A stretch of 64,000 bases of DNA from an uncultured Planctomycetia bacterium (GTDB lineage: Bacteria; Omnitrophota; Gorgyraeia; Duberdicusellales; 4484-171), in contig CAZPYY010000001.1 of the NCBI GenBank assembly GCA_964590995.1, positions 762 through 64,761 of the forward strand, in the 5' to 3' direction. Position numbers and translations under genes: made by a program. Shown piece by piece: positions 16,435-64,000 of the stretch (positions are counted from its first letter, which is position 1; the number at the start of each line of letters is the position of its first letter). Below the pieces are notes generated by a model. That model worked only from the letters and a program-made list of their open reading frames with translations. It ran no database searches and was not told the origin of the DNA.

Positions 16435-16437
16435 ATT

Positions 16438-24986: not shown

Positions 24987-25072
24987 CAGAACTCTTTAAT
25001 CTATGTAATCTTTTCTAAAATCTGAGTAATCAACGGTCTCTGGTACACCTTTAGAAGTCTTTCGGAGACCGT

Positions 25073-25375: not shown

Positions 25376-25451
25376 ATACCACCTCTCTTATTTTATCACA
25401 GTTCATCTTTTTTTCTACCCCTTATTGAGGTTTAATCTCTAATCTCTTCAC

Positions 25452-25480
25452 TGGCAAGATAAAATTTAGCTATCTTGCCA
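25452..25480. other. perfect 10-bp inverted repeat with 9-nt spacer (tggcaagata-aaatttagc-tatcttgcca) overlapping the stop codon of the PilZ gene
   Basis: seen directly; followed on the + strand by a T-rich run (aaattttctttctc); function (terminator or protein-binding palindrome) undetermined. Confidence 0.35.
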
Positions 25481-25873: not shown

Positions 25874-25901
25874 CTCTCACTTGCCCGGTTGAGGACTGTC
25901 C

Positions 25902-26417
25902 TCAACCGCTCTTCTGCCCACCCCGGGGGTGTACATTTTTGGTTTCTTTTAAAAATACACGCCCAGCTCTAGAGATGTTAAGCATATGAATTATGTAGAT
26001 GCGGATAGCTAATACTATCAATATTGTAATGCCTGTATGCGCCCACAAGCCAAACCATGAATCGGTTACTAGAAGTTTCTTTACTGAGATTGAGTATATT
26101 GGCCACCAAATATTTATTATAGGTATAGTAAATAAATTCCACCAAGCTAAAATAATAGCTAATGTTCTAGCGAAATTAAATCTTAATAGAAGCAGAAGAA
26201 TTCCGATAAAGAAAGTAATTACACTTAGCATCGCTAAATAATTACGATAAGCATCTAAAAGGAAATAGATTTCTGAAGGTGTAGACTCCATTGTAGTTAC
26301 TCCTATGAGTAATTCCCAAACACCTGAAATTAAGTGGAAAATTGCTATTGCTACAACATGACAATTTGCCCGGTTTTTTGATAATTGTTTTGTCATCTTC
26401 TTTTTCTTTTTATTCAT
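25902..26417 (-). CDS. small integral membrane protein (4 predicted TM helices), translationally coupled to the giant gene
   Basis: 171 aa; poly-Lys N-terminus; four hydrophobic helices; GGAGGG Shine-Dalgarno sits in the 15-bp gap after the giant ORF stop (26433). Confidence 0.5.
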   Translation of the reverse strand: MNKKKKKMTKQLSKNRANCHVVAIAIFHLISGVWELLIGVTTMESTPSEIYFLLDAYRNYLAMLSVITFFIGILLLLLRFNFARTLAIILAWWNLFTIPIINIWWPIYSISVKKLLVTDSWFGLWAHTGITILIVLAIRIYIIHMLNISRAGRVFLKETKNVHPRGGQKSG

Positions 26418-26432
26418 GCGACCCTCCTCAAA

Positions 26433-26760
26433 TTAATATTTAGGTATCGACGGTATATGTATCGGTGGTGGAGTATACACTGGCGGCATATCAATATTCA
26501 CAGGGAATTGCGGCTTAAATGGGTCTCTGTAATTAGGTGTCGGCGGTATATACACTGGTGGTGGATTATATACCGGCGGCGTATAATGATTATTCATCAT
26601 CTGCTGATATACCGGATTCGTTTTTATCTCCGGCGGAGGGTTGTAAATTCTGTTTATGTTTGGAAATTGGCGCATAGTGTTAGGGCCACGGTAATTCCTA
26701 ATAGTATCTATTAGCGGTGTTTTTGGTACATTAAACTGTTGTAAATCCCGCTGAAGCTGT
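26433..26760 (-). repeat. coding low-complexity Pro/Tyr-rich tail (PPVY/NPPP repeats) at the C-terminus of the giant protein
   Basis: protein ends ...YTPPVYNPPPVYIPPTPNYRDPFKPQFPVNIDMPPVYTPPPIHIPSIPKY; DNA shows reiterated ggcggtata[tc]ac units. Confidence 0.7.
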
Positions 26761-29700: not shown

Positions 29701-32700
29701 AAATCAATTATTTTAGGATTATCATCTATCCTGTCAGAAAGTGCCAGCATAGCCGCTACCCGCACGCTAACTTCTTCATCCTTATTGGAAACAAACTCAA
29801 ACAATAAATCTGTAACTTCTTGTTCTTTAAACTGTACTAAAGAAGATATTATTTTACAACGCGTTCCTGAAACATAATCTTTTGCTGCCTTGATTAATAC
29901 AGGCAAAACCTCTCTACCTCCGATACGCCCTAAAGCAAATATTACATTTGATTGAAATTCTTTATATTCAGCCTTTTCTAACAGCTCAATTAAGTATGAA
30001 GTTGCTTTTGAACCACCCAATTTACTTAACGCCACAATTGCTTCTTCCATTACATTAATATCTCTGCCTTTTAAGTTTGAATCATACTTTTTCGGATTTG
30101 AGATAATATCAATAAGATATTTTACTGCCTGGGGACTTCCTAGCTGTGCTAAAGAGAAAACAGTTAAAACAAATACTCGTTCTCTTATCTCCTCTGTAGT
30201 CCACTTATTTGGTAAAAGTAGCCTCAAAATGAACTCATGTTTAAATTCATCTGCATTGTAATCCCCCTTGAGGGCTTTCATTAATGTATCTTTGGCCAAA
30301 GAATCGCCTAAACATGCTAATACCCTTGCAGCATAGAAGGGGGTCCGAAAATTATCACTCTTTAAGGCCCTTAAATACCCTCCGTACAACTCCTCATGAG
30401 TCACTCCCAACTTAATCAAAACATCTCCTGGAGGATAAAATAACTTAGGTTCTACAATATATAAATTATGCTGCCCGGCAGCCCCGGTTGTCATCTGTAT
30501 ATAGCCATCCACTAATCCTTTCTTTATCTCGTTAGTCATCTCAGGTGCACGAAATAGTTTAGGGCTTTGGGTGGATACACACCAATAGTAAATTAAAGCA
30601 TTACCATAATTTTTACGTTTAAGTGCTCTCTCTGCTATCTTAATCTGTTTATGCGTGAAAGCTCCAGAGCCTGGGGTAGCACACCCACTGTGAAAAACCA
30701 AACTTAATAAAAGCAATATAATTATAGCCTTACCAAGAAATGATTTTACCTTGTTTAGGCGAATCCCTGCCTTGCCGGCAGGCAGGCTAAACACCTCCCG
30801 GTTGAGGACTGTCCTCAACCGCTCTTTAAGGCTTTTGCCTGTTATATTTTCTTCCCCTACCGGAGAGCTGGTCGACTCAAACTTAATCTTAAATACTTCT
30901 ATTTGAAGCCCTAATATCATATCCTGCTGTCCAGCAGGGCTGTAAGCAGGAATGATGCCAAGTTTCCTATCCTCAGCAGCCGTAACTAAAACCAAGGCTG
31001 CCGGATTTCTTATTTTTAGTGCCTCAGCAAAGTTTTTTGTTTTTTTGCGTATTACTTTCTCATAATCTCTATACTCTATAGAAGGATCATAATCATCTAT
31101 GGAAGAGTAATAATCAAACTCGATAACTGTTACTAAATTACGCGGAAAGGGCAACACAGAAAGGTTGTATTGATCTACTACTCTATCTCCGATATAGTCA
31201 TCGCAATAGTACCCTGGTATAGAAGGCGTAATCCACCAGGGCTCAATGGCTAATCCTCTCTCAACAAGGTAAGGTACCCAATTATTATTCTTAAGCATAC
31301 CCGAATAAACCCAATTATCCGAATGCTCGTCGCCATAGAAAAGAGAAAAAGGTGCTTTAAGAATTCCGCGAGCAACCAGTCTTTCTAACCATCTAATACC
31401 TGGAGCGTGTATCCGGCAAAGAGCGACAGGACAATCCAGCAATAAAGAAACTCCCTCTGATATTTTAATTGGGCTGGAGCTAAAGGATAAAGTTTGATGG
31501 TTTTGAGGATTATCAAGAACTGTGGATTTCTTAGCTTTAGAAGAAAGGGCAGGCGAAGAGGCCCCACCAGCCACGGAAGAGGTAACCTCTTCTTGAGTTT
31601 TAACCTGCCCTTTTATATTATTATACCTTTTTAAATTACCAAGGGAGAGAATTTTCTTAAATATTTTTTTTGTGTTATATATGATTTTAATTTTTTCTTT
31701 GGATATCTTGAAGAAGGTAAATATTTTAAATGACTTCCTAATCGGTGGTGCGTGTGATTTAAAATTTAATATATAAAACTGCACTGGGGAGCTGGAGGAA
31801 TTTTCTTGCTGATCTAGCATTCCTGGAACTTTTGTCAAGGCGATAATTAAGCGGATAATCCTGGAGTTTCTGGCAATCATCTCATCCCGGCTTAACCATA
31901 TGGGAATTCCTAAGTTATTGAATATAGAGCTAAGGAAAAAACTTTGATTGAAACCTTCTCCTTCCTTAATAAAATTAAGTATGTCTTTTTCCGAAAGCCT
32001 TCCTATTTCCTGGGAAATGCTTTCTAACTGAGATGTATAATGGAATAGAGGTTGAGGGATGAATATGTTAATTGTGTCAGTCAATTCCAAAGCCACTTCG
32101 TTATGCATACATCTTATAGCAAAAGTAATTGGTTTTTCAATGGCCGGCAATCTACTCATTGTCTGGTATACCCCATCAAAGATACCGAGTACAACCTGAC
32201 TGTTTGCCGGGCTCACCTTTACAGGTTGATCTTTAACTATTTTATATATACCTTCATCAATATCCTCTCCAGTTAAAAACAGGGCCCTTTCCGCCACCTC
32301 TTTACGCAAGTAAAATTCTGCCTTGCCCCTGCGTTGTTTATCCTCCAGCATAAGCCTAAAATATGGCTCATCATGCGTATTGACCAACTTAAGCGAAATG
32401 GAATAAGAGGATGATTGAATCGGCGAGCTGGAATCACCATTTTTTAACTGTTTTGCAGAACCAATAATCCTATCTTTTAACCTATTACTTAGTTGTTTCA
32501 TGAACTCTTCGCTTGTTTTTATATCAACTGTCAATGCCTGAATAACTTTAGGGTCAACCTCTGTATGTTTTACCAAGGCTTCTATTAAATAATCTAAGAG
32601 ATAATTTAGTATCTGAGAAAATACTTCTTTTTTGAACTTTACATCATGCATATCCTGCAAAGATAATAAAAGACGCTTGATTGTTTCCTTTATGTCCTTG

Positions 32701-35700
32701 GGCACACTGCTATCTGCTTCTCTGATAACCTTATCTATTTCTTCTAAGCTCAATAATTTAAATACATCTTGAAGAGAAATCTTCTCTTTTATGTGAATAT
32801 CTCCCTCATCAATAAGGCCATGTTGAATCGCAACACTAACTAAAATGAAAATTACTGCCACCTTTGTGCCGTCTCTTAGTTCGCTTCTCCACTTAAGTGA
32901 ATCAACCTTAAATATGTCTAAAGTCGTTTCATCTCCTACAACAAAATATAGCGTTTTTTCATCTTTGTTGTATCGAATCGCCACAATTGGATTGCCAGAC
33001 CAAATTGCCTGTTCAAAAGGTTGATTATCTTGAGTTAGGTACTGCAAAAGTGTAGTGCCATCTTTTGCTTCTAACTGCATTTTCTCAATAAATCTTCCTT
33101 GATCCATCTTATTCTTAACAAAATACAAACCTCCCCCATCCTCGCTAACTTGGAAAGTAAAGACCATATCTGGCGACTGTAAGTGTATAATACCCTCCTC
33201 TGTACTTGTAGGATCTATAATCTCAACAAAACCTGCTTCTTTTAACATTTTTAAATAGTCTCTCTTTGTTTGCTGCTCTTCCGCGCTTACCGGCGAGCTG
33301 GAAATTGAAGAACTGCTAGTGAGGAAACGCGGTAAAATATCTGCTAACGAAACATTCTCAATGTTTTTGACATCTCTCAATATCCTTTTAAGTTCTTCGG
33401 CGCCATCTCTTCCTCTTCGAAAACTGGTCCAGATCACAGCCTCCCAAAATATAGGGTCAGGCTTTCTCTCTAAAAATTCTACAAAATTTTTAAGGCTACC
33501 TTGATCCCAACTAATAACTGCTAGATGTCCTAATCCATGGTATCCTTCACCAATCATAGTTTTTATCCTGTCAAATAGAAGTTGGATTGCCTCTTTACCA
33601 AAATTATTTTTAAGCCTCCCTAAAAATAAACTGGCCTCTAGAACGAGACTCTGAACATGAAAGTCTTTGGAATGATCATGTAGTAGTATTACAAAGTTGA
33701 CATCTCTATGAGAAAGTATTTCTTTTAGTCCTGCCAATTCTAAGGAACCTGCTTTGAACTTCTTTATATCAATAGCTCCCTCATTAACAAGTTCTCTGAC
33801 TTTTTCTTCAATATTGTTAACAGCGGAATTGGATTCCTTTATAGGCGAGCTGGAGCCAACAAACGAAGGATAAAGGAAAGAAGAAGCTGCCTTTTCATTT
33901 ATCAACATAGAATTAAGCTCCGAAATAAGGTTGTCTACTATAAAATCGATAAATTCTTCAATGGCATGTTCCAGCGACTCGGCGACTGTGGTAAATGCGG
34001 GATTAACATTTTTATCTCTTAGGATCTTAATTGTCTTTCTTATATCCTCTATTATTTTTTCATTTATTATCTTTTCTATCTCTTCAGCAGGAGTGTCAAT
34101 AATGTTAAGAAATTCATAATGGGCGGTTATCTTATGAAACTTATCACCTATACAGGCAAAGAAATCAGCGTCAAAATCTAAAAATATAGGCCTTGTTTCA
34201 TCTTTAAAATCAGGAAGGCCATCCAGATGCACAACATGCATCTTGACTTTCCTTAGTCTTATCAATTCTGCCCCTTGCGGTATACGCAAGTTCCCATCTG
34301 CCTGAGGATGCTCACGGCCAAAATAGCAGTATTTACGCCCATCTTTTAGCTTAAACATAGCTGCATACACACCAAATTCTTCGTCGATACCTAATGCATA
34401 TCCTTGGGGATATACCTGCCATATTTCATCAATCAAATCATATAAAACACCTGCGAAAATATAGCAGTCTTCAGCGTAAGTAATACTTTTTGCTTCTTTA
34501 ACGGTCTTGGGTTGCGGTAAAATACGCAGAGGCGCGCCAGCATCTTCATGGGCGTCAATATGAATAAGTATTGCCCCCATAATACCTTTAAGAATCCGCA
34601 ACATTTCCCAATATTTATAAGCTTCGCCATGGTATTTTATCCTGGCGAATTTATTTTTAAGGGCGTTATTTACCGGCGAGCTGGAAGAATCTTCTCCTCT
34701 TATCCAACTTTTTAGTTCTTCTTTTGAAACTTTACCATAAAGTTCTTTTATCGAGCTTATTTGCTGTAATATAACTGAAGGATCGATGCCCTTCTCATTT
34801 TTAAGGAGGACAACTCCGGGGTATCGTGTCAATTGCGCTTCTCTACCTTCCTGTTTAAGTAAAGCGCACACTCTTCTTTCATGAGATGGTACCGTGCGAA
34901 AAACAAGCCATTCTTCAATCGGGCTACTCGAGACGCAATTCCTCAGGCTTTGTACTTTCGAGGCCGAATTACACTCATTGCCAGCAACTGGCGAATCATA
35001 ACCAAAGGCCGCAAGAGAGCTGGAAGAAGCATTGGGAGCTTCGGGCTGGTACAATTCCGGAAAGAATTCTTTGAGCTTGCCGGAGAATTCCTGATGCATT
35101 AATTGCAGGAATTCCGCAAGCTCATATCTGGAATAGGTTCTGCCTAGTTTATATAACTCTAAGCGCAGACTAGTAAGTTCGTCTATTTCCTCCAGCATCC
35201 TGTCATTGACCAGGGCGTTAAGGAAGCTGAAACGCAAGGAACGTGCGTAATTCATAGTATAAGGAATATTATTTGTCACCCAGAGCGCTTTGTAAAGTTC
35301 AACCGGATGCTCCAGAAGCATTTCGAAAAAAGTAGTTTTGTTAAGCCCTGTTTGGTCGAATCCCTCGTGATTGATGTTTGAAATTGCCTTCATTATCCGG
35401 TTAATCCACAAATTATTACGCCACAACCTGCTAAATGTACCTCTGAAGTCTTGGGGAATCTTATCAAGGTCCGGCCTAAATAGGAATGCTGTCGCTAATA
35501 CATCAAATTTACCTTGAACGAACCTTTTGTTAATTCTAGCACCGCGTAAGTAAGGGTTAGACAACGGTCCCGCCTCCTGCGGAAGCCTTAATACCTTAAG
35601 GTCCATCAAATCTTCTATATGCACACTTTCTGCGACAATAAATATTGCCTCTTTATCATCATAAGGATAAAATTCGATGTCCCCAACTCTTTTTCTATAA

Positions 35701-38700
35701 AGAATATCACCCTCTGTTACGCCTTCGGCATCTTCAATGGAAATAGCCCGGTCCCGCCATCCTTCAAAATGCTCAATTGTCGCCATTTCTTCTTCTGTCC
35801 TGATATCGGCTTTAGGCCAATCCGGATGGCCCAAAATAATCTTTCTCATATCAAACAACAGATCCGGTAAAAAAGAAATAATGGCTGTTGTATTCTTTAA
35901 GTTAAATGTGATATTCTCAACGCTACAGCCCGAGAATATCTTGGCCAACAACTCCCGCCAAGTCTGGCAAAGATTAAAGGTAAGGGCCTTGTTGCCAATC
36001 AGGTTATTTGCCCGTTTAAGCAAGCTGGTAAGTAAATCCTGAGTGGCGGAATCAAGTGCATACCCGGCCAATAAATCCTCGTGGGTTAACCTCTCAAACG
36101 CCGGCGCCGAGGAAGCACCAGAATCACCTTTCGTAGGCGAGCTGGAAGAATCAGCTCTTAGCTCGTAGCTGGTAGCTAGTAGCTGAAAACTATCCGCTAC
36201 AGGCGATGAGCTATTATCTAGCAGTGAGCTGGAGCGGGGGGAAACGAAAGACGAGGTATGAGAGACGAGGGATGAAGACGCGATACGCGAATCTTCCCCC
36301 GGTGAGGCGGCGGAGACGTTAGAGTAATGGTTACTACCCTTACGATTAATATACTGAATCATATCTTTCGCCCATGAGAATATTCTAATGAACAATAGTG
36401 GCTGCTCAGACTCTTTAGTTATCATATTAATAAGAGGTTTATTATCAAGGCATACTCGCACCAAGGCCTGATGTGTTCTTACCAGTTCATAGATAGTGCT
36501 TTTAAATTTTTCACTTCTGACATATGCCTCTTTAGCAAAGATTGTTTTTTTAGGACCTTTTTTTCGTTCTCTGTATTCATCTTTATAAATCCACTCAAGT
36601 GGCAGATACATTTCTGCCCAATTTCCTTTAGCTAAACGCTGTAAATTTTGCATTGTAAAACCAATCTTAGTGATTATGCAATTATCTAAATGCCCGCCGG
36701 CAATGATTAATCTTTGTCCCTTAGATAAATCAACCCTCCAATCTTTTACATGAATAAGGTTAACATTAGGCAATCTTGATTTTAGATAAGAATATCTTTC
36801 CTTAATAGGCATAATGCTGAAATATTGAATATTTGGGAAGTGGTATTGAGCGGAAATTGAATCGGTACGCTTTGTAGCGAAAGAATTGGGTTCTTCACCT
36901 ACCGGCGAGCTGGAGTCAATTGCTCCTTCCTCTCTCAAAGTGTTGACTACGCTATACAACCATGAGTTGATGACGAATAGTCTTGCAATAATACTTGCGA
37001 TATCATTTTCACAATCATATCTTCTAAAGTAATCTTTCAACAATCCCTCTATTTTGGCGCGTTCAATGGCTGTATCGATGACTGTTATTTCTTCGGCCGG
37101 TATGGTCTGTTTAGGATATTCTTTAAGCGAAATCTTATAACTATAAGCAGGTTTTCTTGTAACTTTTTCCCTGTCTTCTTCATCTAGCGCTTGCCTGGAG
37201 AAGATAGCGATAGAGCGTTTCTCCAGTGCAAGTTCTGATTGCGGATACTTTCCGACAAAAACTAATTTGTCTACTAATTTTCTTAATACTTCGTAGTTTT
37301 CCAGCATAAACTCTGATGTAGATAGACCTTCTTTAAAATTAAGTACGCTAAATTGTAAGTTGCCATCCTTATCAGCCGTTAGCCCGTTCTCCATGACCTC
37401 TCTCCTTGCCGATCTGGAGATATTTACCCATAGCGTTGGATGGAATAGCCTTCTCCCACATTGTTCAATCACAAACCTCAATCGCCTCTCAATGAAGTGC
37501 GGTATGTTTTCGTGTGATTTATAACTCTTTATCTCATCGGGTGGCGTACTAAGAATATCTTCTTTAGCTAAGAAGTCATGCATTCTTACTATATTTTTTG
37601 CGCGCGGGAGATTGAACTTCGTAGTTGCGCCAATTATATAGATAAAAGAGGCTGCTCTCTGGATGGGGTCACTAGTATAAATTCCAAAATACGGATTGCT
37701 TGATATGAGGATATGTTCTTCGTAGTCATAATTTATAACTGCGGCTAAGAATCTTTCAAACGGAGCAACGGGCAACAGTCCTTTTCTTGCCATCCCTTCC
37801 AAATGATCTGCCATTTCAGCAAAACCATTATCTCTCAGATACTTAATTGCCATCTGTAGGTCTTCATCTTTCGGCCCTTTTCTATGCAACTGGTCAAACT
37901 CCTTACCAATACCTTCCAAAATACCCTCCAAATCTCTGCCGATTTCTTTTCTAGCCGGCCTTGGGATGCCTGGCATCGCTCTGACTATATCCTCTCCCTG
38001 CCCGTCCGGCAAGCGGGTCCCTTCGGCGGAGGAGGAAGAGGAGGAATTATTTGTCTTTGCAATTTCCTTCAGCACATTCAAAATCTCCTGCCGCAGCGAT
38101 GTGCGACTAAGTTTATTGTCTATGGCGGGCGAGCTGGAAGATTTTCCTTTCAAATCCAGAATCTCCCGTAAAAGATTCCTTTTAACCTGTGCATACAGTT
38201 CCAGTAATACTGGTGCTGTGCACAGCTTCTTGGAACCCCTGTGTATCAAAGATTCCTCAAAGTCAGGGATATCTTTTTTATGAAGGGCATGTGTGGGATT
38301 TAGAAATGCAGACATTAAGAATGTCTTGTTATTTATTCCAGAAAAATAACGTACCAAATGCGAAAGTACTGATTGATCACTCACTAATATTATATCTGCC
38401 TGCTCTACCGCGTCTGCTCTAACAATCTCTATATTATGGAATTTATAAAACCGAGCAAGCCTCTCTCGCATAGCCACATAACCCCGGCAGTAAGAAATAA
38501 TTTTAGTAATAAACTTACAGGAAGACTTTTCTGCTCTAAGCGTTGTACCCGCAGAGAATATTTCTATGCCCATTCTATCCAATGGATCTTGGAGCACTAA
38601 TTCAAGCAATGGACTGCGAAAGACATTAACAGTACATACAACACGAATGCGCTTAATTTGTTTAATTCCTCTGGCTATAAAGATATTCTCGACTGAACGC

Positions 38701-53700: not shown

Positions 53701-56700
53701 TGTTGATAAGCTTCCTTCTCTGTATGTTTAAGATGAACCAGTAATGCTTTTGGCGAAGGCATTAATCCTAACGCATGTGCTCTGTAGAGAAATTGCATAA
53801 ATCGATCATAGAAATCTTCATTAATTAAAACCAGTGGCTTTTGATTTCCAGAATTTCTTAGATTAAACGAAAGAAGCTCACCAATCTCATCCAGGGTACC
53901 AAACCCACCAGGAAAGGCTGACCCACCCAGACTCTTAAAAATAAACATTGCTTTACGTGTGAAAAAATAGTTAAAAATATTCGTTATGTCTTGATATTTA
54001 TTCGATAGTTGTTCATGAGGAAGATTGATACATAAACCAACTGAATTAATAAACTCACGCAAATTCTTATCAACGCTAAGCGCACCTTCGTTTGCTGCGC
54101 GCATAATCCCCGGACCGCCACCAGTAACTACCGAATATCCACCCCGCACTGCTCTCTTACCAAAACGAACAGCTTCTTTATAAAAATGATGGTGGGACTT
54201 GAATCGTGCCGAGCCAAAAGCAAAGAGAGCTGGCCCTAATTCTATGAGCGCACTCTTAGACGCTAGCCATTCATTGATAGTTTGTTCAAAGAATCTCTCT
54301 GAAAGTATGTTGTCGCCTCTTTTATTCCTACTGGATACCGGGCTGCTGGCCTTGTTCTGATTCAACAAGAACATTGAACTGGAAGATTTCTTTTTCCTTC
54401 TTGAACTCTTTTTCTTCTTTTGTGATTTCGCGGAAACAAGATCATGCGTTAATACACGGGAAATATCAATTTCGTTTTTATCGACTCCTTTGGCTTTAAC
54501 TGACCCGCGTATGACACCGTAATGAATAATCTTAATCACTTTTGCGAATGCTCTCTCAAAAGAATAAGAAAAATCCTCTGGCTCTACGGTAAACGCCGCT
54601 GCCAGCATCTTTGCCAGGAACAAGTTACTGTCTTTTATCTCGACAGTAGTCATTACCCTTAATATCTGCTTTAATCTCATTAAAGCAAATTCATTAGTAG
54701 AAAATACTCTTACAACTTCATCTTTTATCCTATCAACATACAATCTTCCTATTTGGCTATCATCTAAACTATCAAGATATTCGTCAAAACCAAGAAGGTA
54801 ATGCCCTAAATGATAAGGAGGTTGATCAGGATACCTTTTACGTACATCTTCCTTTAGAAATTTAATTATTTCTTCTCGTGGTAAGCCTTGAGCTAGCAAT
54901 TCAATAAGCTGGTTAAACGAAGACAAGAAAGCTCCACCGTCGTTTTCATCTTGTAACTTGCCCGCAAACGGGCTGCTGGAATGGTTAAAATAATTATTGC
55001 AACACCTGAGAGCATCATTAAAAATTTCCGCGATGATGTGGTGGGAAAAGTGTTCTCTGCCTATTCTTATATTATGCTCTATTATTCTCTTTCTAAAATC
55101 GGCATCATCAATTATCCTCACCATAAGCATGATAGCTTTCTTTGAAACTGTATCAGTATGAGAGAAAAATGATTTTCTATCAATCAGCGGCAGTTTAATT
55201 ACCTCATCTTCATCAATTTCCATGGTTTCTATAGCCCATAACCCTTTCGCACGTATATCAATTACCCACACCGGGTGAGGATAAACAACAAATGGCCTCT
55301 GATAATAAGCAGCCTCTATCTTAGCATTGCAAAAACCCTCTTGATACGATGGTATTATTATAAGGTCAGCTGCTTCATGTACCTCCCGCAGGCTAAAAGG
55401 TCCAAAGGTTCCCTCAACAGACATTACAAGATTGACCCTCTTCTCTTTGGCAAAACGCTCTAACAGTAACATATAACCTATACCTTCGTCTGTCGCCGGA
55501 TGGGTAATAATGAGGTGCATTCGCCGGTGCGGATATTGCTGCTGCAATTGAGCGGCAATCTCAATGGCCAGTTCTAAATTCTTGCGCCTAATAATTCTAA
55601 GCGGCGCGATCAACAATATGTCATCGGGATGAATATTATGAAATGCCCTGAATGCCTCTCCTGACCTTCTGTTCATGTGCGGTAAATTCTCGAAATCCCT
55701 TGCGTTAGGAGCTATGGCTACCCGCGTATCATATTTATTAAACATCGTTAACTCCTGATACGAATTAATAACTACCGTATAGAGGTCTTCGATCCCGCCA
55801 TAACTTCTACCACCCGCGATCTTATTCAGCCGCCCTGTGACCTTCTCGTTATCGGTCTCGTATTGCTCACGTTCCCACCAGTAATCATGATTGTGGGTAA
55901 TGGTAAAAATAGTCTTATCTTTCATTTCATGTTTTAATTCATTCATAATCTCAACCACCGCGAGCGACAATGCAATATTTACCGGAAGCGACAACACATT
56001 CTCCGGAATGACAAAATCTATGTCATTAGATATAATGAATTTCTTCAATCTTGACTTTATACAATCTTTTAAAAGATGGAATTTATCGATTACCTCATCA
56101 AGTTCCTGATTGAGCTTTCTCTGTTCAGTTTCTTCCTCAATGCTAAGGCCTTCTCTTTTCTGTTTCTCCTCAAGCTTATCTAACTGCTTAGCCAGACTGA
56201 ACAATTGTCCTGTTAATTCTTCAATCTCTTTATTCTTAAAATGGCAGAGAGAATCAACACTCATCCCATCAGCAATATCACTAACGCCGTCAACCTCACC
56301 GGCATAGAAATATACCTCTGCCCCACCCTTCTTGCACACCTTTGCCCACTCTATTAATTCATAGGTAACGCCGTCGCGCGCTTTCTTGCTTATGCGAAAC
56401 GATAAAAACAAAAATCTTTTACCGGCAGCCAGGCTCCTAAGTTGTTTAAATATTTCGCCTTTTTTACCTAATAACTCAAGAGTTGAAATAGCCTTATCAG
56501 CGTTAGTTTGCGGCTCTTCTATAGCCGAACTGCTGGATTCTTCACCATTGTGCTCTCTTATTAATGTTGTTGCAATCGGGCTGCTGGAATCTTTGTCCGG
56601 GCTAGGTAATGTCTTTAATCTCTGCTCTATATCCTCTAATTGTTCATCTAGCCAAAGATGAAAATTATACGAATTAGTGAATTCATCAATAAAATCAAAT

Positions 56701-59700
56701 GCCTTGATAATCAACTCTTTTATTAACTCCAATCTATTCTCATCGGCATCGTTTAAAGTAATATTAAAGAAAGGCTTACTTATGGGCATTTTTGTTTCTT
56801 TTGCTATTAATGCTGAATGCAAATCTTGTAACTTCTTGCCGTCTTCCAAGATCTTATGTTTCTCGCCCGTTAATCTAAATCTACCTTTTGGAAAATCCCG
56901 GAAGGCAAGGATGATCGGCCAAGTTTTTAAGTCTAATTTAAATAAGTCTTTTAACCAAACAACAAGATCAACAATACAAGCAGTTGACCTAATATGGATT
57001 CCCCGATGATCCTGTAGTTGGACTACAAAAGTGATGGAAGTCTTCTTAATTGACGAGCTACAGAGAGTAAAAAGGGACCTGGCCCCTTTTATGTTATTTC
57101 TTAATGACTCTTTAAATAATCCTCTAGTCCACTGTAAGGTATCTTGATCGTTAATTTGTACTGGACTTGCGCAATGTTTCTCATCAATAGTAGTTATATC
57201 CACAGGCAAGCTGACGCGAAGGGATGCTGGATCTATGCGTATGCCTCTGGGCCCTTTTCCTTTATGGACCGCGGCTGCAAAGTATGCGCCTCGGACCTTA
57301 ATCAAATACACAGTGCCAGAGTCACCGCCGACAGGTTTGGCCCCTAACGCCACTATTATATCTTTTTTTATAAAAACCGTATATCCGCTAGATACCGTAT
57401 CGTTATAGCCGCTCACCAGAGTAATAAACAGTCCTTCGTCTAACTCGGATGCTATGGGAACCGGCAGAAGAGCTCCTCCGCGTACTGCTTTTTTCTCAAT
57501 TACAAGCATGGCCAGGTCAACATTTGGATCTCGCCAGATTACCCCTGCCTTACCTATCAATTCATCAGTGTTAGTTCTAAGTATAACCTTATCTCTTTCT
57601 TTAACCACATGGGCACAAGTTAAAAGGATGTAGGCATCTTTTGTCTGTTTCCATACAAAGGCGCTCCCTAAACGGGCAATCTTAACAATCCTTCGAGAAA
57701 ATGCTCCTTTTTCTCTATCCTGGGCAACCTTTTTTTCTAGATTTTGCCTTGCTAATTCTGTCTCAGGAGCTGCTAAAGCTAAAGCTATTTCTTTCACATC
57801 GTCTCGGGGGGTGATTGTTCTTAAGATAAAGTCGATATAATACCTTTTTTCTCTTCTTTGTTCAACGGTTGCCGTAAGGGATTTCAGAGCTAAAGCTATT
57901 TCTTTCACATCATCGCGGGGGGCAATTGTTCTTAAGATAAAGTGCATAGAATAACCTTTGATTGCCCGGATAAGTAAGTCCAATTCCTCAGCTGCATCAG
58001 CTATTCTTTCAGCTGTTGCTTTGAGATCAAGGTTATCTTCAGCAACAATTGCTTTAAGCATAAAACCGACGCAGTAAGCTGGTATTCCTCTTTGGGCCAA
58101 GGTGTTAGTGCAAAAGTTAAGAGCTAAAGCTACTTCTTGAGTGTCATTTCGAGCAGCGATTGCCTTCTGAATAAAGTTAATAGTATGCTTGTCTATTCCT
58201 GTTTGCCATAAGGTAAGTTCAAATTGTCTATTCTCTGCTAAAACAGGTGAAGAGGCAAGCCATCCATTTTGAATATTTTTGTGCAAACTTATCTCTTTGA
58301 ACCTCTGGCCTAACTCAGGCAGGGTGATATCCAGCTCGCCCCGGATAAGTTTGAATGCCTGTTCATATTGTCTGGCGACTCGAATAATACTTATTTTGTC
58401 ATGGCTTATTTCATAGGCAGCCTGCATCATTTCCAGCCACTTAGTGTTATTGTTTTCTTTATGGGCATAATACAGCTTAGCTGCTTCTTGCAGATACTTT
58501 CCGAGAAGTTCCTGGGATTTGCTGAAATAAAAATCGACAATCTTCCTTTTTTCTTCGTATTCGTCTCCTAATTCAAAATGGTGCACGATTTGTTCAAAAG
58601 TATAATCTGTACCGGCAAAAACATCCATCAACCAGCCATTCACCCCATGTTCAATGTATTCAGCCGCACAGCCAGTTTTTGTGGCGATATTTAAGTGGCC
58701 ATTAACGGCTGCTCTTCCATCAGACGTTCCGCCAGCCTCACGGGTTGAGCGCGGCATGCTATTCCATACATCGCAGGCCTGGGTAGCGACTTTCATAATC
58801 TCAGTTCCCGAACCATCGACAAAGATAAATTTGCCTTTCATATCCTCTCTATCAGCCATTATCTTAAACCAGTCTACCCAATCCTTGCCGGCTGCATCGC
58901 GACCCACTCCGCCCATGAAGAAATTCCCCGCCAGGCCATAAGAATCACCCCATGGAGTCGGATACAATTTATCTCTCTCGCCTACAACCCAGGGAAGAAG
59001 GTCAAACAATATGCGCTGCTCTTTATACTCAACAAACCTGCGCACCAGACCAAACAAAGGCCTATCTTGATATTCGAATCCATAACCCTTTGTTGCCTCT
59101 ATGGTCTTGTTAAGCTGCGTTTTCATAGAACAACCTATCTCGTAAAGCACCTTCCCTGTAATTTGCTCTCCAGCTAACTCAAGTTCAAGAAGCTTTTGGC
59201 CCTTCCACTGCTCCGGACAAGAGCCGTTGGTGATCGCTATAACCTTATCAGTATTATCAGGCACAATGATCAGCTTGGTAGTCTCAGCATGCTCTTGTGA
59301 TACAGCATTGATAACTTTGACTCTTGAGTTTTCTGCCAGCCGCCTGGTCAAATTCACTCTACCGTCTCTTACTATATCTTCCGGAACCAAGTCAGGGCCG
59401 ATATTTTCTCTCAACCACCAGGCATCAGAATAAATCCCTAGCGCGGCAGTTTCCGGAGTATGAGTTGTGAAAAGGACTTGCGTATTCGCAAAGATGCTTT
59501 GCTCGCCCTTTTCTCTAAACTGGTCATTATCGAAATATCTAATATCATTCATCATTGCCTGAAGCAGAAAGAAAGTCTGAGCTTCGTTGCAACGTAAGAT
59601 GTCCGGAGCAATCCCAATTTGCTTAAAAAACTCAACATACGCCCGTCCTAAGAAAGCCATTTGTCGCACCTTTCCCGGCTCTCTAGGATAAAGCCCATAG

Positions 59701-62700
59701 AAGATTTCCGGCTGGCGCACCTGTAACACCGGAATATTTTGCACTAATGCTATATACATCCGGGCATTGTAATCAAAACCCCTAAAATTAACATTAAATC
59801 GGAACGCCTCTTTCCCTGTTTCCTTAGAACCTAACGGCCTTAGGCCTTCAATATTATTCCAATCAATCCCTATATAGCGCTTGCCATCATCATGCTTATC
59901 CACATAGTGCTCATACAACGGCATAAACCCGACAGCTCGCAGGCCAATAAGGCCAAATCCTATAAAGGTTTCACCTGAGAGAAAACCCAAGCCACCAGAA
60001 GCCTGCGCCTGTTGGGCAGTTTGGTCTTTGACCACATCTAAAAATGCCTCCATCGTCGCATCAAGGACAAACGGCCCCTGCCTTAAATATTGCTTCAAGC
60101 CTTCAATATCAGTTATCGGGCTGCTGGATTGCTTACCCAAAATATGCTGATCATTTTCCCAATCTTTAAGTATTCCCTTTAATGGTTGTGGATAATGTGT
60201 ACAATCTATATCAAGCCCGAGCATCTGGCCATAGATAAGGGTAAATTTAAAGGCCGCGGTACGCACATCGACAACTGGCAGCATGCGGGTAGCATTATAC
60301 ATAATATCCAGCACTCCCTCGGGACATTGCTGCATATATTTCATAACCAGCTCAGCCCAGGGCCTGTTAGGAAACCTATCATGGTCTTCTAAGTCTTTTG
60401 TAGTCACGCTCTTATCCAAATGATAGTGGTAGGCATAAATACGTGCCGAGGCATCTTCAAGACATGCCTGAAGATATCTGGGCGAAAAAGACTCAAATAG
60501 ATAGCCATTTCCTGTCAGAGGGTCGTAAAACTTTTTCCCGGTTTTCTCCTCCCATACCGGTATCCATACGTTTAGAATCTGCTGAGGGGGAGCGCCGGTA
60601 TAGCTGGAAACAAGAATTGCCGCGGTTATCATAAATTTTTTATCGGCCATACCTGCGGCTTCGCGCGGCGGTATAGACCATTGGGCTGCTACGCTGGTTG
60701 CGCGAATAGCCGGAATCGAAACAGGAACATTCCAGGGGCCAAATAAGAATTTCCCTTTAAGTTTTCGCGAGTATGCTGTCATCTGATAACTCCATGTCAG
60801 ACCTAACGTATCATCCTGGTGGGCCTTGCCCGCCATATATACGTTAAATCCAAGACCACCACCAAAGCTACTTTCGCTCTTCTGAGGATTTTCGCAAACA
60901 TAGTCTAATCCACTTAAGGTGGTATGTTTGAAACTCCTGCCGGGCATCAGGGTAATAAATTTAATCCACTTATAATCACAGATGCGCCGGGCCTGAATAA
61001 GTAAAGGCCTGATTTTCTCAAAAACAACGCCCCACCAGTCTTTAAGCAGTCTGATAAAGCGCTCGGCCGCCCTTTGTTTCGCCTCCCATAATTCATATTT
61101 GTCTAGTCTCTTCTGTCCCATAGACTCTAATTGTTCGGGAAGCATCCAGAAAAACGGCCAAATAGAGTCTTCGATATAGAAATACTTTTCTTTAAATCGG
61201 CCGAAACGTACCTCGTCAGCCGCCATCACCTCTTCGTGTTCAACCCCCACTGTGCCAATACATCGTGCTTGCTCACTTATGAAGTACCAGGGATCATATC
61301 TTCCGCTCTGCTGGGTTATTTCCCCGAGTATCTGCCCATCCCACCCCGTTGTATTCATTACCATAGCCGTATCACTAAATACCGGAAAGGCGGCAAGTTG
61401 CACTGTATGACAAAACGCCATAATACTTTCTTTTGTCCTCTGCAGAACACTGATATCTTTAAACTCATGATGATAGAAGATGTCAGGAACACCGGTTGCG
61501 GCAAAGGCCTCGTGCACCTGTAAAATATCAAGCTCAATTCCTAGCGCCTCAAAGGTCTTGAATGTTGCTCGGCTATAATAAATTGCCTGGGCCAACCGGG
61601 ATTCGCTGTCAGGATATTGCGGATACAATTCTCCAGCAACGTCATCAGTTAGATGAATCAAGAGTACAACCGCATCGCCGGGTGAGCCTTTCACCTTTAA
61701 GCGCCATGCCTCAACTTTGGTTTTTATCCTTTTGTTGTATAGAGGAAATTCTACTTCTATTGCCTGATCAAGGCTATAGCTCTCGATATCATCAGAATGA
61801 AGCAGGTCATCCCAATCTAAAACAACATTGTTAAGCTCAGGGGTCTTAACTGGATTTGTCCACGAAATGACCTCTTTCATGCCGCCTAGATCACCTTTAT
61901 CGCAAGAACGATTAATAACTTCGGCCAAAACCGCAAAATCTTCTTGGTTATCCCCTGTTTCTTCTTCAACGATAAGCACCTTTCGCCCCGATTCAAGCGG
62001 AAGCAGGGACTGCATATCCCCGCTATTCAAAATAACCACCTGGGTTACGTAATTAAGGGCCTGGGAAATATCGTCATCAGGATGTAAGCCTTCGGAAATT
62101 ACCAGTTTCTTTCCTGACATTGAATCAGGAACTAAATAGCCGTCAATCAATCCTCGAATATTATGCGCCAATTCATCAGAGCTAATATGCTCTTCAACTT
62201 CATAAAGACGAAATACCGCATGCTTCATTGACTGCTGTACGCCTCGGAGGTATTTAGGTACAGAAAAGAAGTATGTCCCTCCGTTGGCAGGTAATCCCCG
62301 CATAAATCCTCCGTTTAAAATACCTAAACCTCCGCCCATTGCCCCTTCAAGGCCATACTGAGACATAGTTGCCTCTGCGCACATCACCCCAATCTTTTTA
62401 TTTTGTAATTCCTGGGCAACAGGATAAACAAAAGGCTGGTCAGAGATATTCCGCGGTTTAATCTTTTTCTTCACTTTATATATTCTTCTCTGAAGCGTCA
62501 GCTGTTTATCTCCCTTTCTGATTATTAGTTCAACCTCTATATTCTCCCGGCCAAAACGCGGGTCCAAATGATAAGAATAAATACGCATATTAGCATCTCT
62601 TACCTCCACTTCTGCTCTATCATTTAAGTCTACCTCAAAGCTTAATTGGCCATCAGTCTTAAACTGCAAGTAAAAATTCAGTCCTTCTCTAGCTTTTATC

Positions 62701-64000: not shown

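What the first reader, a model, noticed from the sequence alone, without database searches (positions are those of the whole stretch)
30860..63551. About 31 'SSSP[V/I]' module-junction motifs encoded by a nucleotide-conserved GC-rich 11-13-mer in two position-specific variants
Nearly every module boundary in the giant protein is marked by Ser-Ser-Ser-Pro-(Val/Ile/Ala/Phe/Met), for example SSSPVDLVN, SSSPITDIEG, SSSPIATT, SSSPFAGK, SSSPIATG, SSSPVYSS, SSSPMQRN, SSSPVGNV, SSSPVAKC, SSSPVDVN, SSSPVDDV, SSSPADKE, ASSPVGKE, SSSPAIDN, SSSPVGEE, SSSPIEEW, SSSPVNNA, SSSPIKES, SSSPVSAE, SSSPIQSS, SSSSPVQF, SFSSSPIKI and TSSPVGEE. The conservation holds at the DNA level: in the C-terminal half (30.8-47 kb) the motif is almost always TCC-AGC-TCG-CC(G/T)-GT, which reads ACCGGCGAGCTGGA on the + strand. 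In the N-terminal third (53-63.6 kb) it is TCC-AGC-AGC-CCG-(A/G)T, which reads (C/T)CGGGCTGCTGGA on the + strand. These GC-rich Ser/Pro codons are atypical for a 35%-GC genome, so the conservation cannot be explained by amino-acid selection alone. Only a few copies have drifted to AT-rich synonymous codons (e.g. tct tca cct gtt at 58241). Possible explanations are: (a) a recombination or module-shuffling hotspot through which cassettes were serially inserted, with the two variants marking two assembly phases or two fused progenitor genes; (b) an RNA-level signal; or (c) a conserved processing or glycosylation site. The protein carries its own S1 and C39-like proteases, so autoproteolytic polyprotein maturation at SSSP|V is conceivable. 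I am not aware of a described system with this signature.
Basis: seen in the sequence. Interest (0 to 1): 0.85.

Follow-up and report, generated by a model that had tools for sequence, protein, structure and literature searches.

The report
Junction motif joining giant-protein modules
A 12,518-residue protein of an uncultured Omnitrophota bacterium is made of about 30 unrelated, complete enzymes joined end to end by the same five-residue joint (Ser-Ser-Ser-Pro-Val/Ile/Leu); related bacteria have reshuffled whole modules exactly at this joint, and it may mark where the giant protein is cut into pieces.

Summary
The giant ORF (26433-63989, minus strand) has 31 [S/A]SSP[V/I/L] sites: 24 SSSP against 0.17 expected. 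Sixteen are exact 11-mers, all on the coding strand and in one frame. Eleven are TCCAGCTCGCC (32.4-44.3 kb) and five are TCCAGCAGCCC (53.0-63.6 kb). The 26 kb of ordinary genes has none.

The gene belongs to the Omnitrophota 'multi-enzyme' giant proteins. The motif sits where whole stand-alone proteins would start and end, and no domain hit crosses it.

Four other Omnitrophota giants use the same joint with the same codon consensus, TCC-AGY-TCG-CCG. In two relatives that are 80-90% identical, 11 of 15 rearrangement breakpoints fall on the joint, and homology switches inside its TTCGCCG core.

Other lineages use other joints: GARLA, RSEMR, RAETR, GASLG, NHGMSQGE. Nucleotide homogeneity ranges from near-perfect to codon class only.

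So the peptide is under selection, and the joint copies share descent and recombine. No separate DNA or RNA signal is needed.

The likeliest role is a protease processing site. This is inferred, not shown. Supporting points are Tat signal peptides directly after joints in two other lineages and an in-cis trypsin-like module with an intact triad.

I found no description of this motif in the giant-gene papers searched.

The parts
26433..63989 (-). Giant ORF, 12,518 aa. A TTG directly follows a TAG, and the first ATG is codon 71. About 32 segments are joined by 31 junctions. The C-terminal 1,477 aa are HEAT repeats plus a Pro-rich tail.
63537..63551 (-). Junction, aa 147 SSSPV, TCC AGC AGC CCG GTG (exact AGC-type)
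63435..63449 (-). Possible degenerate junction, aa 181 AASPI, GCT GCT AGC CCT ATT (weakest candidate; may be chance)
60114..60128 (-). Junction, aa 1288 SSSPI, TCC AGC AGC CCG ATA (exact AGC-type)
58242..58256 (-). Degenerate junction, aa 1912 ASSPV, GCC TCT TCA CCT GTT
56574..56588 (-). Junction, aa 2468 SSSPI, TCC AGC AGC CCG ATT (exact AGC-type)
54966..54980 (-). Junction, aa 3004 SSSPF, TCC AGC AGC CCG TTT (exact AGC-type)
54336..54350 (-). Junction, aa 3214 ASSPV, GCC AGC AGC CCG GTA (AGC-type, one mismatch)
53007..53021 (-). Junction, aa 3657 SSSPI, TCC AGC AGC CCA ATT (exact AGC-type)
51999..52013 (-). Degenerate junction, aa 3993 ASSPI, GCT TCA TCC CCG ATA
46971..46985 (-). Degenerate junction, aa 5669 SSSPV, AGC AGC AGT CCG GTT (third Ser is AGY class)
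44907..44921 (-). Junction, aa 6357 SSSPM, TCC AGT TCT CCG ATG. It is the N-terminal boundary of the methyltransferase module used for the cross-lineage comparison.
44271..44285 (-). Junction, aa 6569 SSSPV, TCC AGC TCG CCT GTG (exact TCG-type). It is the C-terminal boundary of the methyltransferase module and is followed by a hydrophobic segment.
43896..43910 (-). Degenerate junction, aa 6694 SSSPV, TCC TCC TCG CCT GTA
43212..43226 (-). Junction, aa 6922 SSSPV (exact TCG-type)
41850..41864 (-). Junction, aa 7376 SSSPV (exact TCG-type); 27 nt are 96% identical to the copy at 43208-43234
41235..41249 (-). Junction, aa 7581 SSSPA (exact TCG-type)
39366..39380 (-). Junction, aa 8204 ASSPV, GCC AGT TCG CCG GTG
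38703..38717 (-). Degenerate junction, aa 8425 SSSPL, TCT TCA TCG CCG CTT (peptide kept, 3 nt changed)
38124..38138 (-). Junction, aa 8618 SSSPA (exact TCG-type)
36900..36914 (-). Junction, aa 9026 SSSPV (exact TCG-type)
36198..36212 (-). Degenerate junction, aa 9260 SSSPV, AGC TCA TCG CCT GTA
36132..36146 (-). Junction, aa 9282 SSSPT (exact TCG-type)
34917..34931 (-). Degenerate junction, aa 9687 SSSPI, TCG AGT AGC CCG ATT (AGY class at the third Ser)
34671..34685 (-). Junction, aa 9769 SSSPV (exact TCG-type)
33840..33854 (-). Junction, aa 10046 SSSPI (exact TCG-type)
33288..33302 (-). Junction, aa 10230 SSSPV (exact TCG-type)
32418..32432 (-). Junction, aa 10520 SSSPI (exact TCG-type)
31782..31796 (-). 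Junction, aa 10732 SSSPV, TCC AGC TCC CCA GTG (one mismatch)
31548..31562 (-). Degenerate junction, aa 10810 ASSPA, GCC TCT TCG CCT GCC
31467..31481 (-). Degenerate junction, aa 10837 SSSPI, AGC TCC AGC CCA ATT
30858..30872 (-). Last junction, aa 11040 TSSPV, ACC AGC TCT CCG GTA
56586..58244 (-). Module aa 1916-2468 holding a trypsin/HtrA-like serine protease core (aa ~2100-2235): His2127 (TCAHVV), Asp2158 (VDLAML), Ser2224 (GGDSGT). It is the candidate processing protease.
44283..44906 (-). Methyltransferase-like module aa 6362-6569. The same module in other giants is flanked by each lineage's own junction peptide. Stand-alone homologues of 217-287 aa start and end where the junctions lie.
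58330..58340 (+). Single inverted exact copy of the junction core TCCAGCTCGCC. It is read in the gene as R-G-E-L-D and lies 87 nt upstream of the degenerate junction at aa 1912.

Best explanation
The SSSP[V/I/L] motif is the joint peptide of an Omnitrophota 'multi-enzyme' giant protein. The ORF is an end-to-end fusion of about 30 unrelated, complete proteins, and every fusion point carries the same five-residue joint.

Shown:
1. The joints lie where stand-alone homologues begin and end, and no domain hit crosses one.
2. The peptide is under purifying selection. Copies that have drifted by 3-4 nucleotides still encode [S/A]SSP, and other genomes keep the peptide.
3. The copies descend from one another rather than arising independently. 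The Ser codon-class pattern TCN-AGY-TCN cannot change by a single synonymous mutation, and it is shared within the gene and across four genomes. A second class with AGY at the third Ser marks the N-terminal part here and a separate upstream ORF in a relative.
4. Whole modules are moved, inserted or lost by recombination inside the joint's short nucleotide core.
5. Other giant-protein lineages have the same architecture with different joint peptides.

Inferred:
- The near-identity of the 11-mers in this gene reflects recent or frequent recombination among joints, that is, concerted evolution in two pools. It does not reflect a separate DNA or RNA signal.
- The peptide is conserved because it is a recognition site at which a protease cuts the giant chain into its component proteins. 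The candidate protease is the trypsin/HtrA-like module encoded in the same ORF, or a trans-acting enzyme.
- The aliphatic residue after Pro may be P1. Joints of all lineages fit x-[A/S]-x-[L/V/I/M/T].
For: Enrichment and frame:
- 24 SSSP against 0.17 expected.
- 16 exact 11-mers, all on the coding strand and in frame 0. There are none in 26 kb of neighbouring genes here, and none in the ~41 kb of flanks held for six related loci (the one apparent flank copy, in L012, lies in the giant ORF's own frame).
- The ordinary genes have 0 SSSP in 8,297 aa.

Joints are module ends:
- All Pfam and NCBIfam hits in the window protein lie between consecutive joints. Two NCBIfam models fit almost whole between consecutive joints: NF041101 positions 14-429 of 431 at aa 2539-2992, between joints at 2468 and 3004, and TIGR00730 positions 5-176 of 178.
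- The same holds for six domains of P0003.
- Stand-alone homologues of the methyltransferase module (217-287 aa) end at N-x-L-Y-R-V plus 0-20 residues (0-6 in five of the eight aligned), where giants carry SSSP, GARLA or RAETR. They start where the upstream joint lies.

Same joint elsewhere:
- P0002 has 17 SSSP (0.09 expected), P0003 has 14, P0005 has 7, P0009 has SSP[LIV], and P0007 has [S/A]ASPLA x22.
- The shared codon consensus is TCC-AGY-TCG-CCG. TCG at the Ser before Pro occurs in 16/31, 11/19, 11/24, 7/10 and 25/31 joints, against 8-16% background.
- The class pattern TCN-AGY-TCN occurs in 13/18 C-terminal joints (P = 6e-8).

Shuffling:
- 11/15 breakpoints lie within 8 aa of a joint (P = 6e-11), and the nucleotide switch is inside TTCGCCG.

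Peptide selected, not nucleotides:
- Orthologous joint Ser codons differ in 8/44 cases against 20/146 in the flanks.
- GASLG joints have free third positions, but Ser is always AGY. RAETR joints always use CGN for Arg.

Other joints:
- GARLA x22, RSEMR x11, RAETR x9, NHGMSQGE x12, MKQGTGE x5 and GASLG x6. Each flanks the same module.

Processing:
- Canonical Tat signal peptides lie 3-15 residues after joints in P0029 (x3) and P0038 (x1). That is 4/209 joints against 3/2600 random positions, P = 1e-4.
- The protease triad is intact.
- West-Roberts et al. suspect cleavage but state that information on cleavage points is lacking.
Against: Cleavage has not been observed, and nothing here tests it directly.

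P0002, P0003, P0005 and P0007 show no protease domain in their precomputed Pfam lists, so a cis protease is not general.

The trypsin-like match is below Pfam's gathering score (25.0 against 27.6), and the structure prediction failed (pLDDT 35).

The joint peptides of different lineages are chemically diverse (SSSPV, RSEMR, NHGMSQGE). That would need proteases of different specificity.

The Tat-signal evidence comes from other lineages, not from this gene. It could also be a relic of recent fusion.

The shared G/C-ending codon consensus (TCC AGC TCG CCG; AAC CAC GGC ATG TCG CAG GGG in L011) across genomes whose shared modules are only 30-45% identical is not fully explained by descent plus drift. 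Weak nucleotide-level selection or GC-biased conversion is not excluded.

The synonymous-rate test had low power: overall, 18% of codons differed.

No close orthologue of this particular gene was available.
Confidence: 0.55

Rival explanations
1. The joint is an uncleaved inter-module linker. The giant protein works as one chain, a scaffold of enzymes. The joint peptide is simply inherited with each fusion point and kept because it is a harmless short hinge.
For: - Ser and Pro are typical linker residues.
- Most relatives show no protease domain.
- Descent of the copies would by itself give some similarity.
- Peptides from a giant ORF of a related organism were detected in proteomics without any report of processing.
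Against: - A hinge needs no fixed sequence. Here five residues carry all the information and nothing outside them does.
- Copies that drifted by 3-4 nt still keep the peptide.
- Other lineages use joints that are not linker-like (RSEMR, RAETR, GARLA, NHGMSQGE).
- Tat signal peptides directly after joints make sense only with a free N-terminus.
Confidence: 0.25
2. The nucleotide sequence is itself the selected element: an in-frame recombination site for a dedicated cassette-exchange system (an 'in-frame integron'). On this view the peptide is only its translation.
For: - 16 identical 11-mers in one orientation.
- Breakpoints lie exactly inside the core.
- Nucleotide-homogeneous joints in other lineages (L010, L011).
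- Joint codons are G/C-ending, as expected at conversion hot spots.
Against: - No recombinase or integrase in the 26 kb next to the gene or in the flanks of related loci.
- No conserved flanks or inverted-repeat arms around the 11-14 nt core.
- All copies are in one reading frame, and degenerate copies change mostly at synonymous sites.
- GASLG joints are free at third positions.
- Orthologous joints drift like their flanks.
Confidence: 0.1
3. The motif is a translational or RNA-level signal: for example a ribosome pause at rare TCG-CCG codons to let each module fold, an RNase processing site, or a peptide-bond-skipping site.
For: - TCG is the rarest Ser codon (10-11%) yet dominates the position before Pro.
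- The L011 joint contains a Shine-Dalgarno-like GGGGGAGGA.
Against: - The codon preference is not universal: L013 is free at third positions, and the N-terminal variant uses the common AGC.
- A pause that helps folding should lie 30-40 codons downstream of a domain end, not on it (general knowledge of the ribosomal exit tunnel).
- No conserved flanking structure and no Rfam family.
- RNA cleavage would leave pieces without stop codons or ribosome-binding sites.
Confidence: 0.05
4. The motif is a post-translational modification site: O-glycosylation or proline-directed phosphorylation of the Ser cluster.
For: A Ser cluster followed by Pro resembles the low-complexity acceptor regions of bacterial O-glycosylation (my own knowledge, not tested). 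The protein carries glycosyltransferase modules.
Against: - Joints of other lineages with the same architecture have no Ser or Thr (GARLA, AELR).
- The modules are cytoplasmic-type enzymes, and the window protein has only four hydrophobic segments.
- Nothing explains why a modification site should sit exactly at every module end.
Confidence: 0.05

Closest known systems
Omnitrophota giant proteins, 'multi-enzyme metabolic cluster' class (West-Roberts et al. 2023, bioRxiv 10.1101/2023.11.21.568195; Nielsen & Lui 2026, bioRxiv 10.64898/2026.06.07.730766)
   Same: Same phylum: all named MetRS relatives are Omnitrophota. Same architecture: many different enzyme domains tile one ORF, including methyltransferases, GT1/GT5, phosphorylase, LOG and HEAT.
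   Different: Neither paper mentions a recurring junction motif. Full-text searches for SSSP, linker, motif, junction and polyprotein (and, in the 2026 preprint, cleav) found nothing relevant. West-Roberts et al. write that missing information on cleavage points prevented splitting the proteins. The junction, its codon-level descent and the shuffling at it are additions.
Viral polyproteins with short protease cleavage motifs (e.g. picornavirus 3C Q|G, coronavirus Mpro LQ|S/A/G)
   Same: One ORF encodes several complete proteins. A 4-6-residue consensus sits at every boundary with no conserved flanks. The motifs are lineage-specific, and a chymotrypsin-fold protease is encoded in the same chain.
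   Different: This is a cellular chromosome gene among housekeeping genes, ten times longer. Cleavage is not demonstrated. The boundary motif is also homogeneous at nucleotide level and serves as a recombination breakpoint, which viral sites are not known to do.
Integron cassette arrays (attC sites)
   Same: Unrelated cassettes in one orientation are separated by a recurring site at which cassettes are exchanged.
   Different: No integrase nearby. The site is 11-14 nt without the palindromic attC structure. It lies inside an ORF, always in frame, and its translation is under selection.
Inter-module linkers and docking regions of NRPS/PKS megasynthases
   Same: Giant modular bacterial proteins whose modules can be exchanged at linker regions.
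   Different: NRPS/PKS modules are paralogous and cooperate on one product, and their linkers are longer and variable. Here the modules are unrelated whole enzymes, there is no internal paralogy at E <= 1e-8, and the joint is a fixed pentapeptide.
Gingipain-type bacterial polyproteins (RgpA/Kgp of Porphyromonas gingivalis), from my own knowledge
   Same: A bacterial precursor is cut at defined residues into catalytic and adhesin parts by its own protease.
   Different: Those precursors have few parts, the parts are related in function, and the sites are simple Arg/Lys bonds. There is no recurring nucleotide-level joint.

Membership tests
Omnitrophota multi-enzyme giant proteins | Encoded in an Omnitrophota genome | tested here: met
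   MetRS of the window is 58-76% identical to proteins that NCBI names Candidatus Omnitrophota/Omnitrophica, and no named hit is from another phylum. The giant's own relatives are Omnitrophota MAG proteins.
Omnitrophota multi-enzyme giant proteins | A very long ORF tiled by many different enzyme domains, with no single repeat dominating | tested here: met
   12,518 aa. Domains found: GT5/phosphorylase, trypsin-like, GT1 (full-length mannosylglucosylglycerate-synthase-like), LOG, several methyltransferases and an arginase-like domain. HEAT repeats occur only at the C-terminus. No internal paralogy at E <= 1e-8.
Protease-processed polyprotein | Segments correspond to complete, independently viable proteins | tested here: met
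   Stand-alone homologues of 217-287 aa match one inter-junction segment end to end. Full-length NCBIfam models fit between junctions. In P0005 the cytidylate kinase P-loop starts right after SSSP.
Protease-processed polyprotein | A short conserved motif at every boundary | tested here: met
   31 sites, with all information confined to five residues. Equivalent motifs occur in other lineages.
Protease-processed polyprotein | A cognate protease | tested here: inconclusive
   The trypsin/HtrA-like module has His2127, Asp2158 and Ser2224. It is below the Pfam gathering score, and the structure model was unusable. No protease domain is listed for P0002, P0003, P0005 or P0007.
Protease-processed polyprotein | Cleavage at the motif actually occurs | not testable with these tools
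   This needs proteomics or expression experiments. The only indirect support is Tat signal peptides directly after junctions in P0029 and P0038.
Integron-like cassette array | A tyrosine recombinase (IntI) next to the array | tested here: not met
   Pfam on the 26 ORFs downstream of the giant gene found only housekeeping, transporter and PilZ genes. The upstream side is outside the window.
Integron-like cassette array | Recombination sites with an imperfect palindromic (attC-like) structure | tested here: not met
   Only 11-14 nt are conserved, with no conserved flanks or arms.
Genome-wide oriented short motifs (Chi sites, DNA uptake sequences) | Occurrence throughout the genome, in genes of all kinds and in any frame | tested here: not met
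   0 copies in 26.4 kb of other genes here, and 0 in the ~41 kb of flanks held for six related loci (the one apparent L012 flank copy is in the giant ORF's frame). All 16 exact copies are in one frame of one gene.
   No C39 hit at E <= 0.01: Pfam over the whole protein, NCBIfam over its first 10,000 residues.

The most novel reading that the evidence does not exclude
Omnitrophota giant ORFs of the multi-enzyme class are true cellular polyproteins. They are operon-sized sets of complete proteins, including Tat-exported ones, translated as one chain and cut at lineage-specific joint peptides. The short nucleotide core of the same joint is the substrate for in-frame exchange of whole-protein cassettes within and between giant genes. 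One 12-15-nt element would then be both the processing signal and the recombination joint of a modular gene-assembly system not described in cellular organisms.
Probability: 0.3. Interest if true: 0.95.

Novelty: new variant of a known kind. Interest (0 to 1): 0.8.

Why it matters
Giant genes of Omnitrophota are among the longest known. Whether their products act as one chain or are cut up is an open question. The main study says it could not be addressed because no cleavage points were known.

The junction motif gives exact, testable candidate cut sites: 31 in this gene, with equivalent motifs in other lineages. These allow:
- a targeted search of metaproteomes for neo-termini;
- a principled way to split giant proteins for structure prediction and annotation;
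- a simple k-mer test to recognise this class of protein.

The codon-class argument and the breakpoints at nucleotide resolution also show how such genes are built and rebuilt: whole proteins are exchanged at a short in-frame joint. That is a mode of gene evolution of general interest.

Tried and rejected
**Searches that returned little**
- The genome-contig scan with a 1,200-aa piece found one distant, non-giant locus, L001.
- The metagenome scan with the methyltransferase-module alignment gave three loci. One (L004) duplicates L003. L005 and L006 have paralogous repeats but no clean junction.
- The search for homologous proteins with the small alignment returned a single protein because of the word filter.
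- No DNA was available for P0029, the GARLA lineage.
- No close orthologue of this gene's C-terminal 5,000 aa exists in the protein collection. The best non-self hit is 32-42% identical over 3-7% of the query. The synonymous-site test therefore had to use another species pair.

**Checks that came back negative**
- The AlphaFold2 model of the protease core from a single sequence was unusable (pLDDT 34.7).
- Rfam and Tandem Repeats Finder gave nothing relevant.
- Literature searches for SSSPV/SSSPI/SSSPL, and for Omnitroph* with polyprotein, found nothing relevant.

**Ideas considered and dropped**
- Internal translation starts. The residue after Pro is often encoded by GTA, GTT or GCN, which are not start codons, and there is no ribosome-binding site.
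- Serine-driven self-cleavage. Some lineages' junctions have no Ser or Thr.
- A codon-pair bias for Ser-Pro. It is absent outside the motif.
- Stop-codon reassignment. TCG and AGC are used normally elsewhere.
- An assembly artefact. An 11-14-nt repeat is too short to mis-join contigs, and L003 and L004 are independent assemblies with the same joints.

Full report
**1. What is in the window**

All ORFs of at least 150 codons lie on the minus strand. The last one, 26433-63989, is a single open frame of 12,518 codons.

The 26 kb downstream of the giant gene is an ordinary chromosomal neighbourhood. It holds two PilZ genes, an oligopeptide-type ABC transporter, AspRS/LysRS, a Lol-like transporter, ClpC-McsB-McsA, the Mla system, RadA, IspD/IspF, CysRS, Tmk, HolB, MetRS and TatD. 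There is no recombinase or mobile-element gene.

The MetRS is 58-76% identical to proteins that NCBI names Candidatus Omnitrophota, and no other phylum appears among the named hits. The contig comes from a metagenome assembly (ERZ23499038).

The giant protein carries a glycogen-synthase/phosphorylase-like region, a trypsin/HtrA-like protease, a full-length GT1 enzyme, a LOG-family domain, several methyltransferases, an arginase-like domain and ten HEAT_2 repeats at the C-terminus. That places it in the 'multi-enzyme metabolic cluster' class of Omnitrophota giant proteins described by Nielsen & Lui.

**2.

- The protein has 30 SSP and 24 SSSP, where composition predicts 2.4 and 0.17. SSSP is its most over-represented tetrapeptide.
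- With a slightly wider pattern there are 31 sites from 63551 down to 30858.
- At DNA level, TCCAGCTCGCC occurs 11 times between 32.4 and 44.3 kb. TCCAGCAGCCC occurs 5 times between 53.0 and 63.6 kb.
- All 16 exact copies are on the coding strand and in frame 0. Shuffled sequence gives no exact copy. The other 26.4 kb of the window has none.
- An unbiased repeat search lists this motif as the largest direct-repeat family of the gene.
- Codon choice is specific to the motif: TCC 19/24 (background 13%), AGC 18/24 (20%), TCG 14/24 (10%). Eighteen SSS runs not followed by Pro, and 33 Ser-Pro pairs outside the motif, show no bias.
- Flanks are unrelated. Across 95 sites in four proteins, all information sits in positions -3 to +1: [S/A]-S-S-P-[V/L/I].

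**3. The motif marks the ends of whole proteins**

Every Pfam or NCBIfam hit in the window protein lies between two consecutive junctions. Two models fit almost from first to last position: NF041101 positions 14-429 of 431 between the junctions at aa 2468 and 3004, and TIGR00730 positions 5-176 of 178. Six domains of the relative P0003 behave the same way.

A methyltransferase-like module (aa 6362-6569) was used as a probe against 1.84 billion representative proteins. It found 77 proteins: many giants and eight stand-alone proteins of 217-287 aa.

In the alignment, the stand-alone proteins end at N-x-L-Y-R-V plus 0-20 residues (0-6 in five of the eight), exactly where the giants carry their junction. 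Their N-termini align with the residues just after the upstream junction. The giant ORF is therefore a chain of complete proteins. The segments are not paralogues of one another: there are no internal matches at E <= 1e-8.

**4. The same junction in other genomes, and other junctions in other lineages**

The C-terminal 5,000 residues found six other giant proteins (4,282-6,608 aa), five of them named Omnitrophota by NCBI.
- P0002 has 17 SSSP (0.09 expected), P0003 has 14 and P0005 has 7.
- P0007 uses [S/A]ASPLA 22 times.
- P0004 and P0006 lack the motif.

Three of these genes, like the window gene, are followed by PilZ and ABC-transporter genes.

Among giants that hold the methyltransferase module, other lineages have other recurring peptides at 200-500-residue spacing: GARLA (22 copies), RSEMR (11), RAETR (9), NHGMSQGE (12), [S/A]ELR (12), GASLG (6) and MKQGTGE (5). 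The shared module is flanked by whichever peptide its host protein uses. Fifteen of 37 such giants of at least 2,000 aa have a clearly over-represented 4-mer.

The peptides share a loose pattern, x-[A/S]-x-[L/V/I/M/T]-x.

**5. What the nucleotides say**

Across five genomes the SSSP-type junction has the consensus TCC-AGY-TCG-CCG. The rare TCG fills the position before Pro in 35-81% of copies, against 8-16% background.

Serine has two codon classes, TCN and AGY, that cannot interconvert by one synonymous change. So the class pattern records ancestry. TCN-AGY-TCN occurs in 13 of 18 C-terminal SSSP junctions here (14.6% expected, P = 6e-8) and dominates in L004, L007 and L008.

Junctions with AGY at the third Ser cluster in three places: the N-terminal third of this gene, the upstream 2,986-aa ORF of L003, and the N-terminal 1,000 residues of P0002. 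The junction copies are therefore related by descent, in two old pools.

Third positions tell a graded story:
- almost invariant here and in L011 (AAC CAC GGC ATG TCG CAG GGG);
- partly free in L010, L012, L004 and L007;
- free in L013, where GASLG keeps only the AGY class of its Ser.

Between L007 and L004, which differ at 18% of codons for conserved residues, junction Ser codons differ in 8 of 44 cases and flanking Ser codons in 20 of 146. I see no extra constraint on the nucleotides. The constraint is on the peptide: copies here that differ from the consensus by 3-4 nt still encode [S/A]SSP.

**6. Modules move at the junction**

P0002 and P0003 (with its upstream ORF) are 80-90% identical but not collinear. 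Of 15 internal ends of the matching blocks, 11 lie within 8 residues of a junction in P0002, where 6.3% is expected (P = 6e-11).

At one breakpoint L004 reads ...GCCAGTTCGCCG|GCGGAACAA.... Its left side matches one P0002 junction up to TTCGCCG, and its right side matches another P0002 junction from TTCGCCG onward. Exchange therefore happens inside the shared 7-nt core.

Homologous modules at 37-45% identity sit between junctions in quite different neighbourhoods in the window protein, P0003, P0007 and others. Frequent exchange among junctions would also homogenise them. That is my explanation for the 16 identical 11-mers here. It is an inference.

**7. What the peptide is for**

A plain hinge would not need a fixed pentapeptide, and RSEMR or GARLA do not look like hinges. 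A modification site on Ser does not fit lineages whose junction has no Ser or Thr.

The reading that fits best is a protease recognition site, as in viral polyproteins. There, each lineage has its own short motif and no conserved flanks.

Two observations point that way.
- The window protein has a trypsin/HtrA-like module with His2127, Asp2158 and Ser2224 in the usual order and motifs. HtrA-family enzymes prefer aliphatic P1 residues (my own knowledge), which matches the V/I/L after Pro.
- In P0029 and P0038, four junctions are followed within 3-15 residues by canonical twin-arginine signal peptides (for example RAETR-SLNRRMFLKAVTAAAVGVAA). That is 4 of 209 junctions against 3 of 2,600 random positions (P = 1e-4). 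A Tat signal is expected to work only at a free N-terminus.

Against this reading:
- no cleavage has been seen;
- most relatives show no protease domain;
- the protease match is weak and its model failed;
- the Tat evidence is from other lineages.

I put the full model at about 0.55. The junction and shuffling parts are shown, and the processing part is inferred.

**8. Known or new**

[quoted passage not shown] Neither that paper, nor Nielsen & Lui, nor Seymour et al. mentions a recurring junction, linker or motif. Full-text searches for the peptide found nothing relevant.

The giant-gene class is known. What appears undescribed is the junction peptide, its lineage-specific forms, its descent shown by codon classes, and module exchange at it. 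I rate it a new variant of a known kind: polyprotein-like joint motifs, found here in a cellular giant gene.

**9. Limits**

- No close orthologue of this gene was available.
- The rate test has low power.
- The G/C-ending codon consensus shared by distant genomes is not fully explained.
- Only 20-30 kb around each related gene could be read, so a distant recombinase or protease cannot be excluded.

Noticed in passing
window 58330-58340 (+ strand): One exact inverted copy of the junction core TCCAGCTCGCC lies inside the giant gene. It is read as R-G-E-L-D, 87 nt upstream (in gene direction) of the degenerate junction at aa 1912. About 0.01 such copies are expected by chance. It could be the trace of an inversion between junctions.
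   Followed up: partly
window 57777-58193: A 72-nt unit is present three times (88% and 63% identity to the first copy). It encodes 'DDVKEIALALK'-type repeats just N-terminal to the trypsin-like core.
   Followed up: no
window 36844-36919 and 39310-39385: 76 nt are 83% identical. They are the starts of two paralogous modules (SSSPVG[E/K]EPNS...TDSISA[Q/E]Y). This is the only clear case where similarity extends beyond the junction.
   Followed up: partly
window 24006-26417; L007 19683-23854; L009 15598-19869; L011 17113-19224: In four genomes the giant gene is followed by one or two PilZ-domain genes and then ABC-transporter genes. The position is conserved even though the module content of the giant gene differs.
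   Followed up: partly
P0029 residues 1762, 2182 and 3573; P0038 residue 533 (proteins): Canonical twin-arginine (Tat) signal peptides lie directly after junction peptides inside giant proteins of other lineages. Several junctions are also followed by hydrophobic, signal-anchor-like segments, including window aa 6573-6600.
   Followed up: yes
L011 3001-16989 (CP070807.1, a complete 1.82-Mb genome): The NHGMSQGED junction is about 30 residues long and is itself flanked on both sides by x-S-S-P / T-S-P. Its DNA contains a Shine-Dalgarno-like GGGGGAGGA. It may be a short spacer module set between two SSP-type joints.
   Followed up: partly
L003 59-9019 and 8962-21806: In this relative the giant gene is called as two overlapping ORFs (2,986 and 4,282+ aa). 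AGY-type junctions are in the first and TCN-type in the second. I could not tell whether the split is real or a frameshift in the assembly.
   Followed up: no
window 12912-17038: There is a ClpC - McsB (ATP:guanido phosphotransferase) - McsA-like (UVR motif) gene set. This is the arginine-phosphorylation protein-degradation system best known from Firmicutes.
   Followed up: no
window 26433-30857 (aa 11045-12518): The C-terminal 1,477 residues have no junction. They consist of ten HEAT_2 repeats with 55-227-nt internal DNA repeats, followed by a proline-rich tail (PPVYxPPP).
   Followed up: no
window 46986-51998 (aa 3998-5668): This is a 1,671-residue stretch without any junction and with almost no domain hits. 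It separates the AGC-type and TCG-type parts of the gene. In-frame near-matches such as ASSLR (51272) may be decayed junctions.
   Followed up: no
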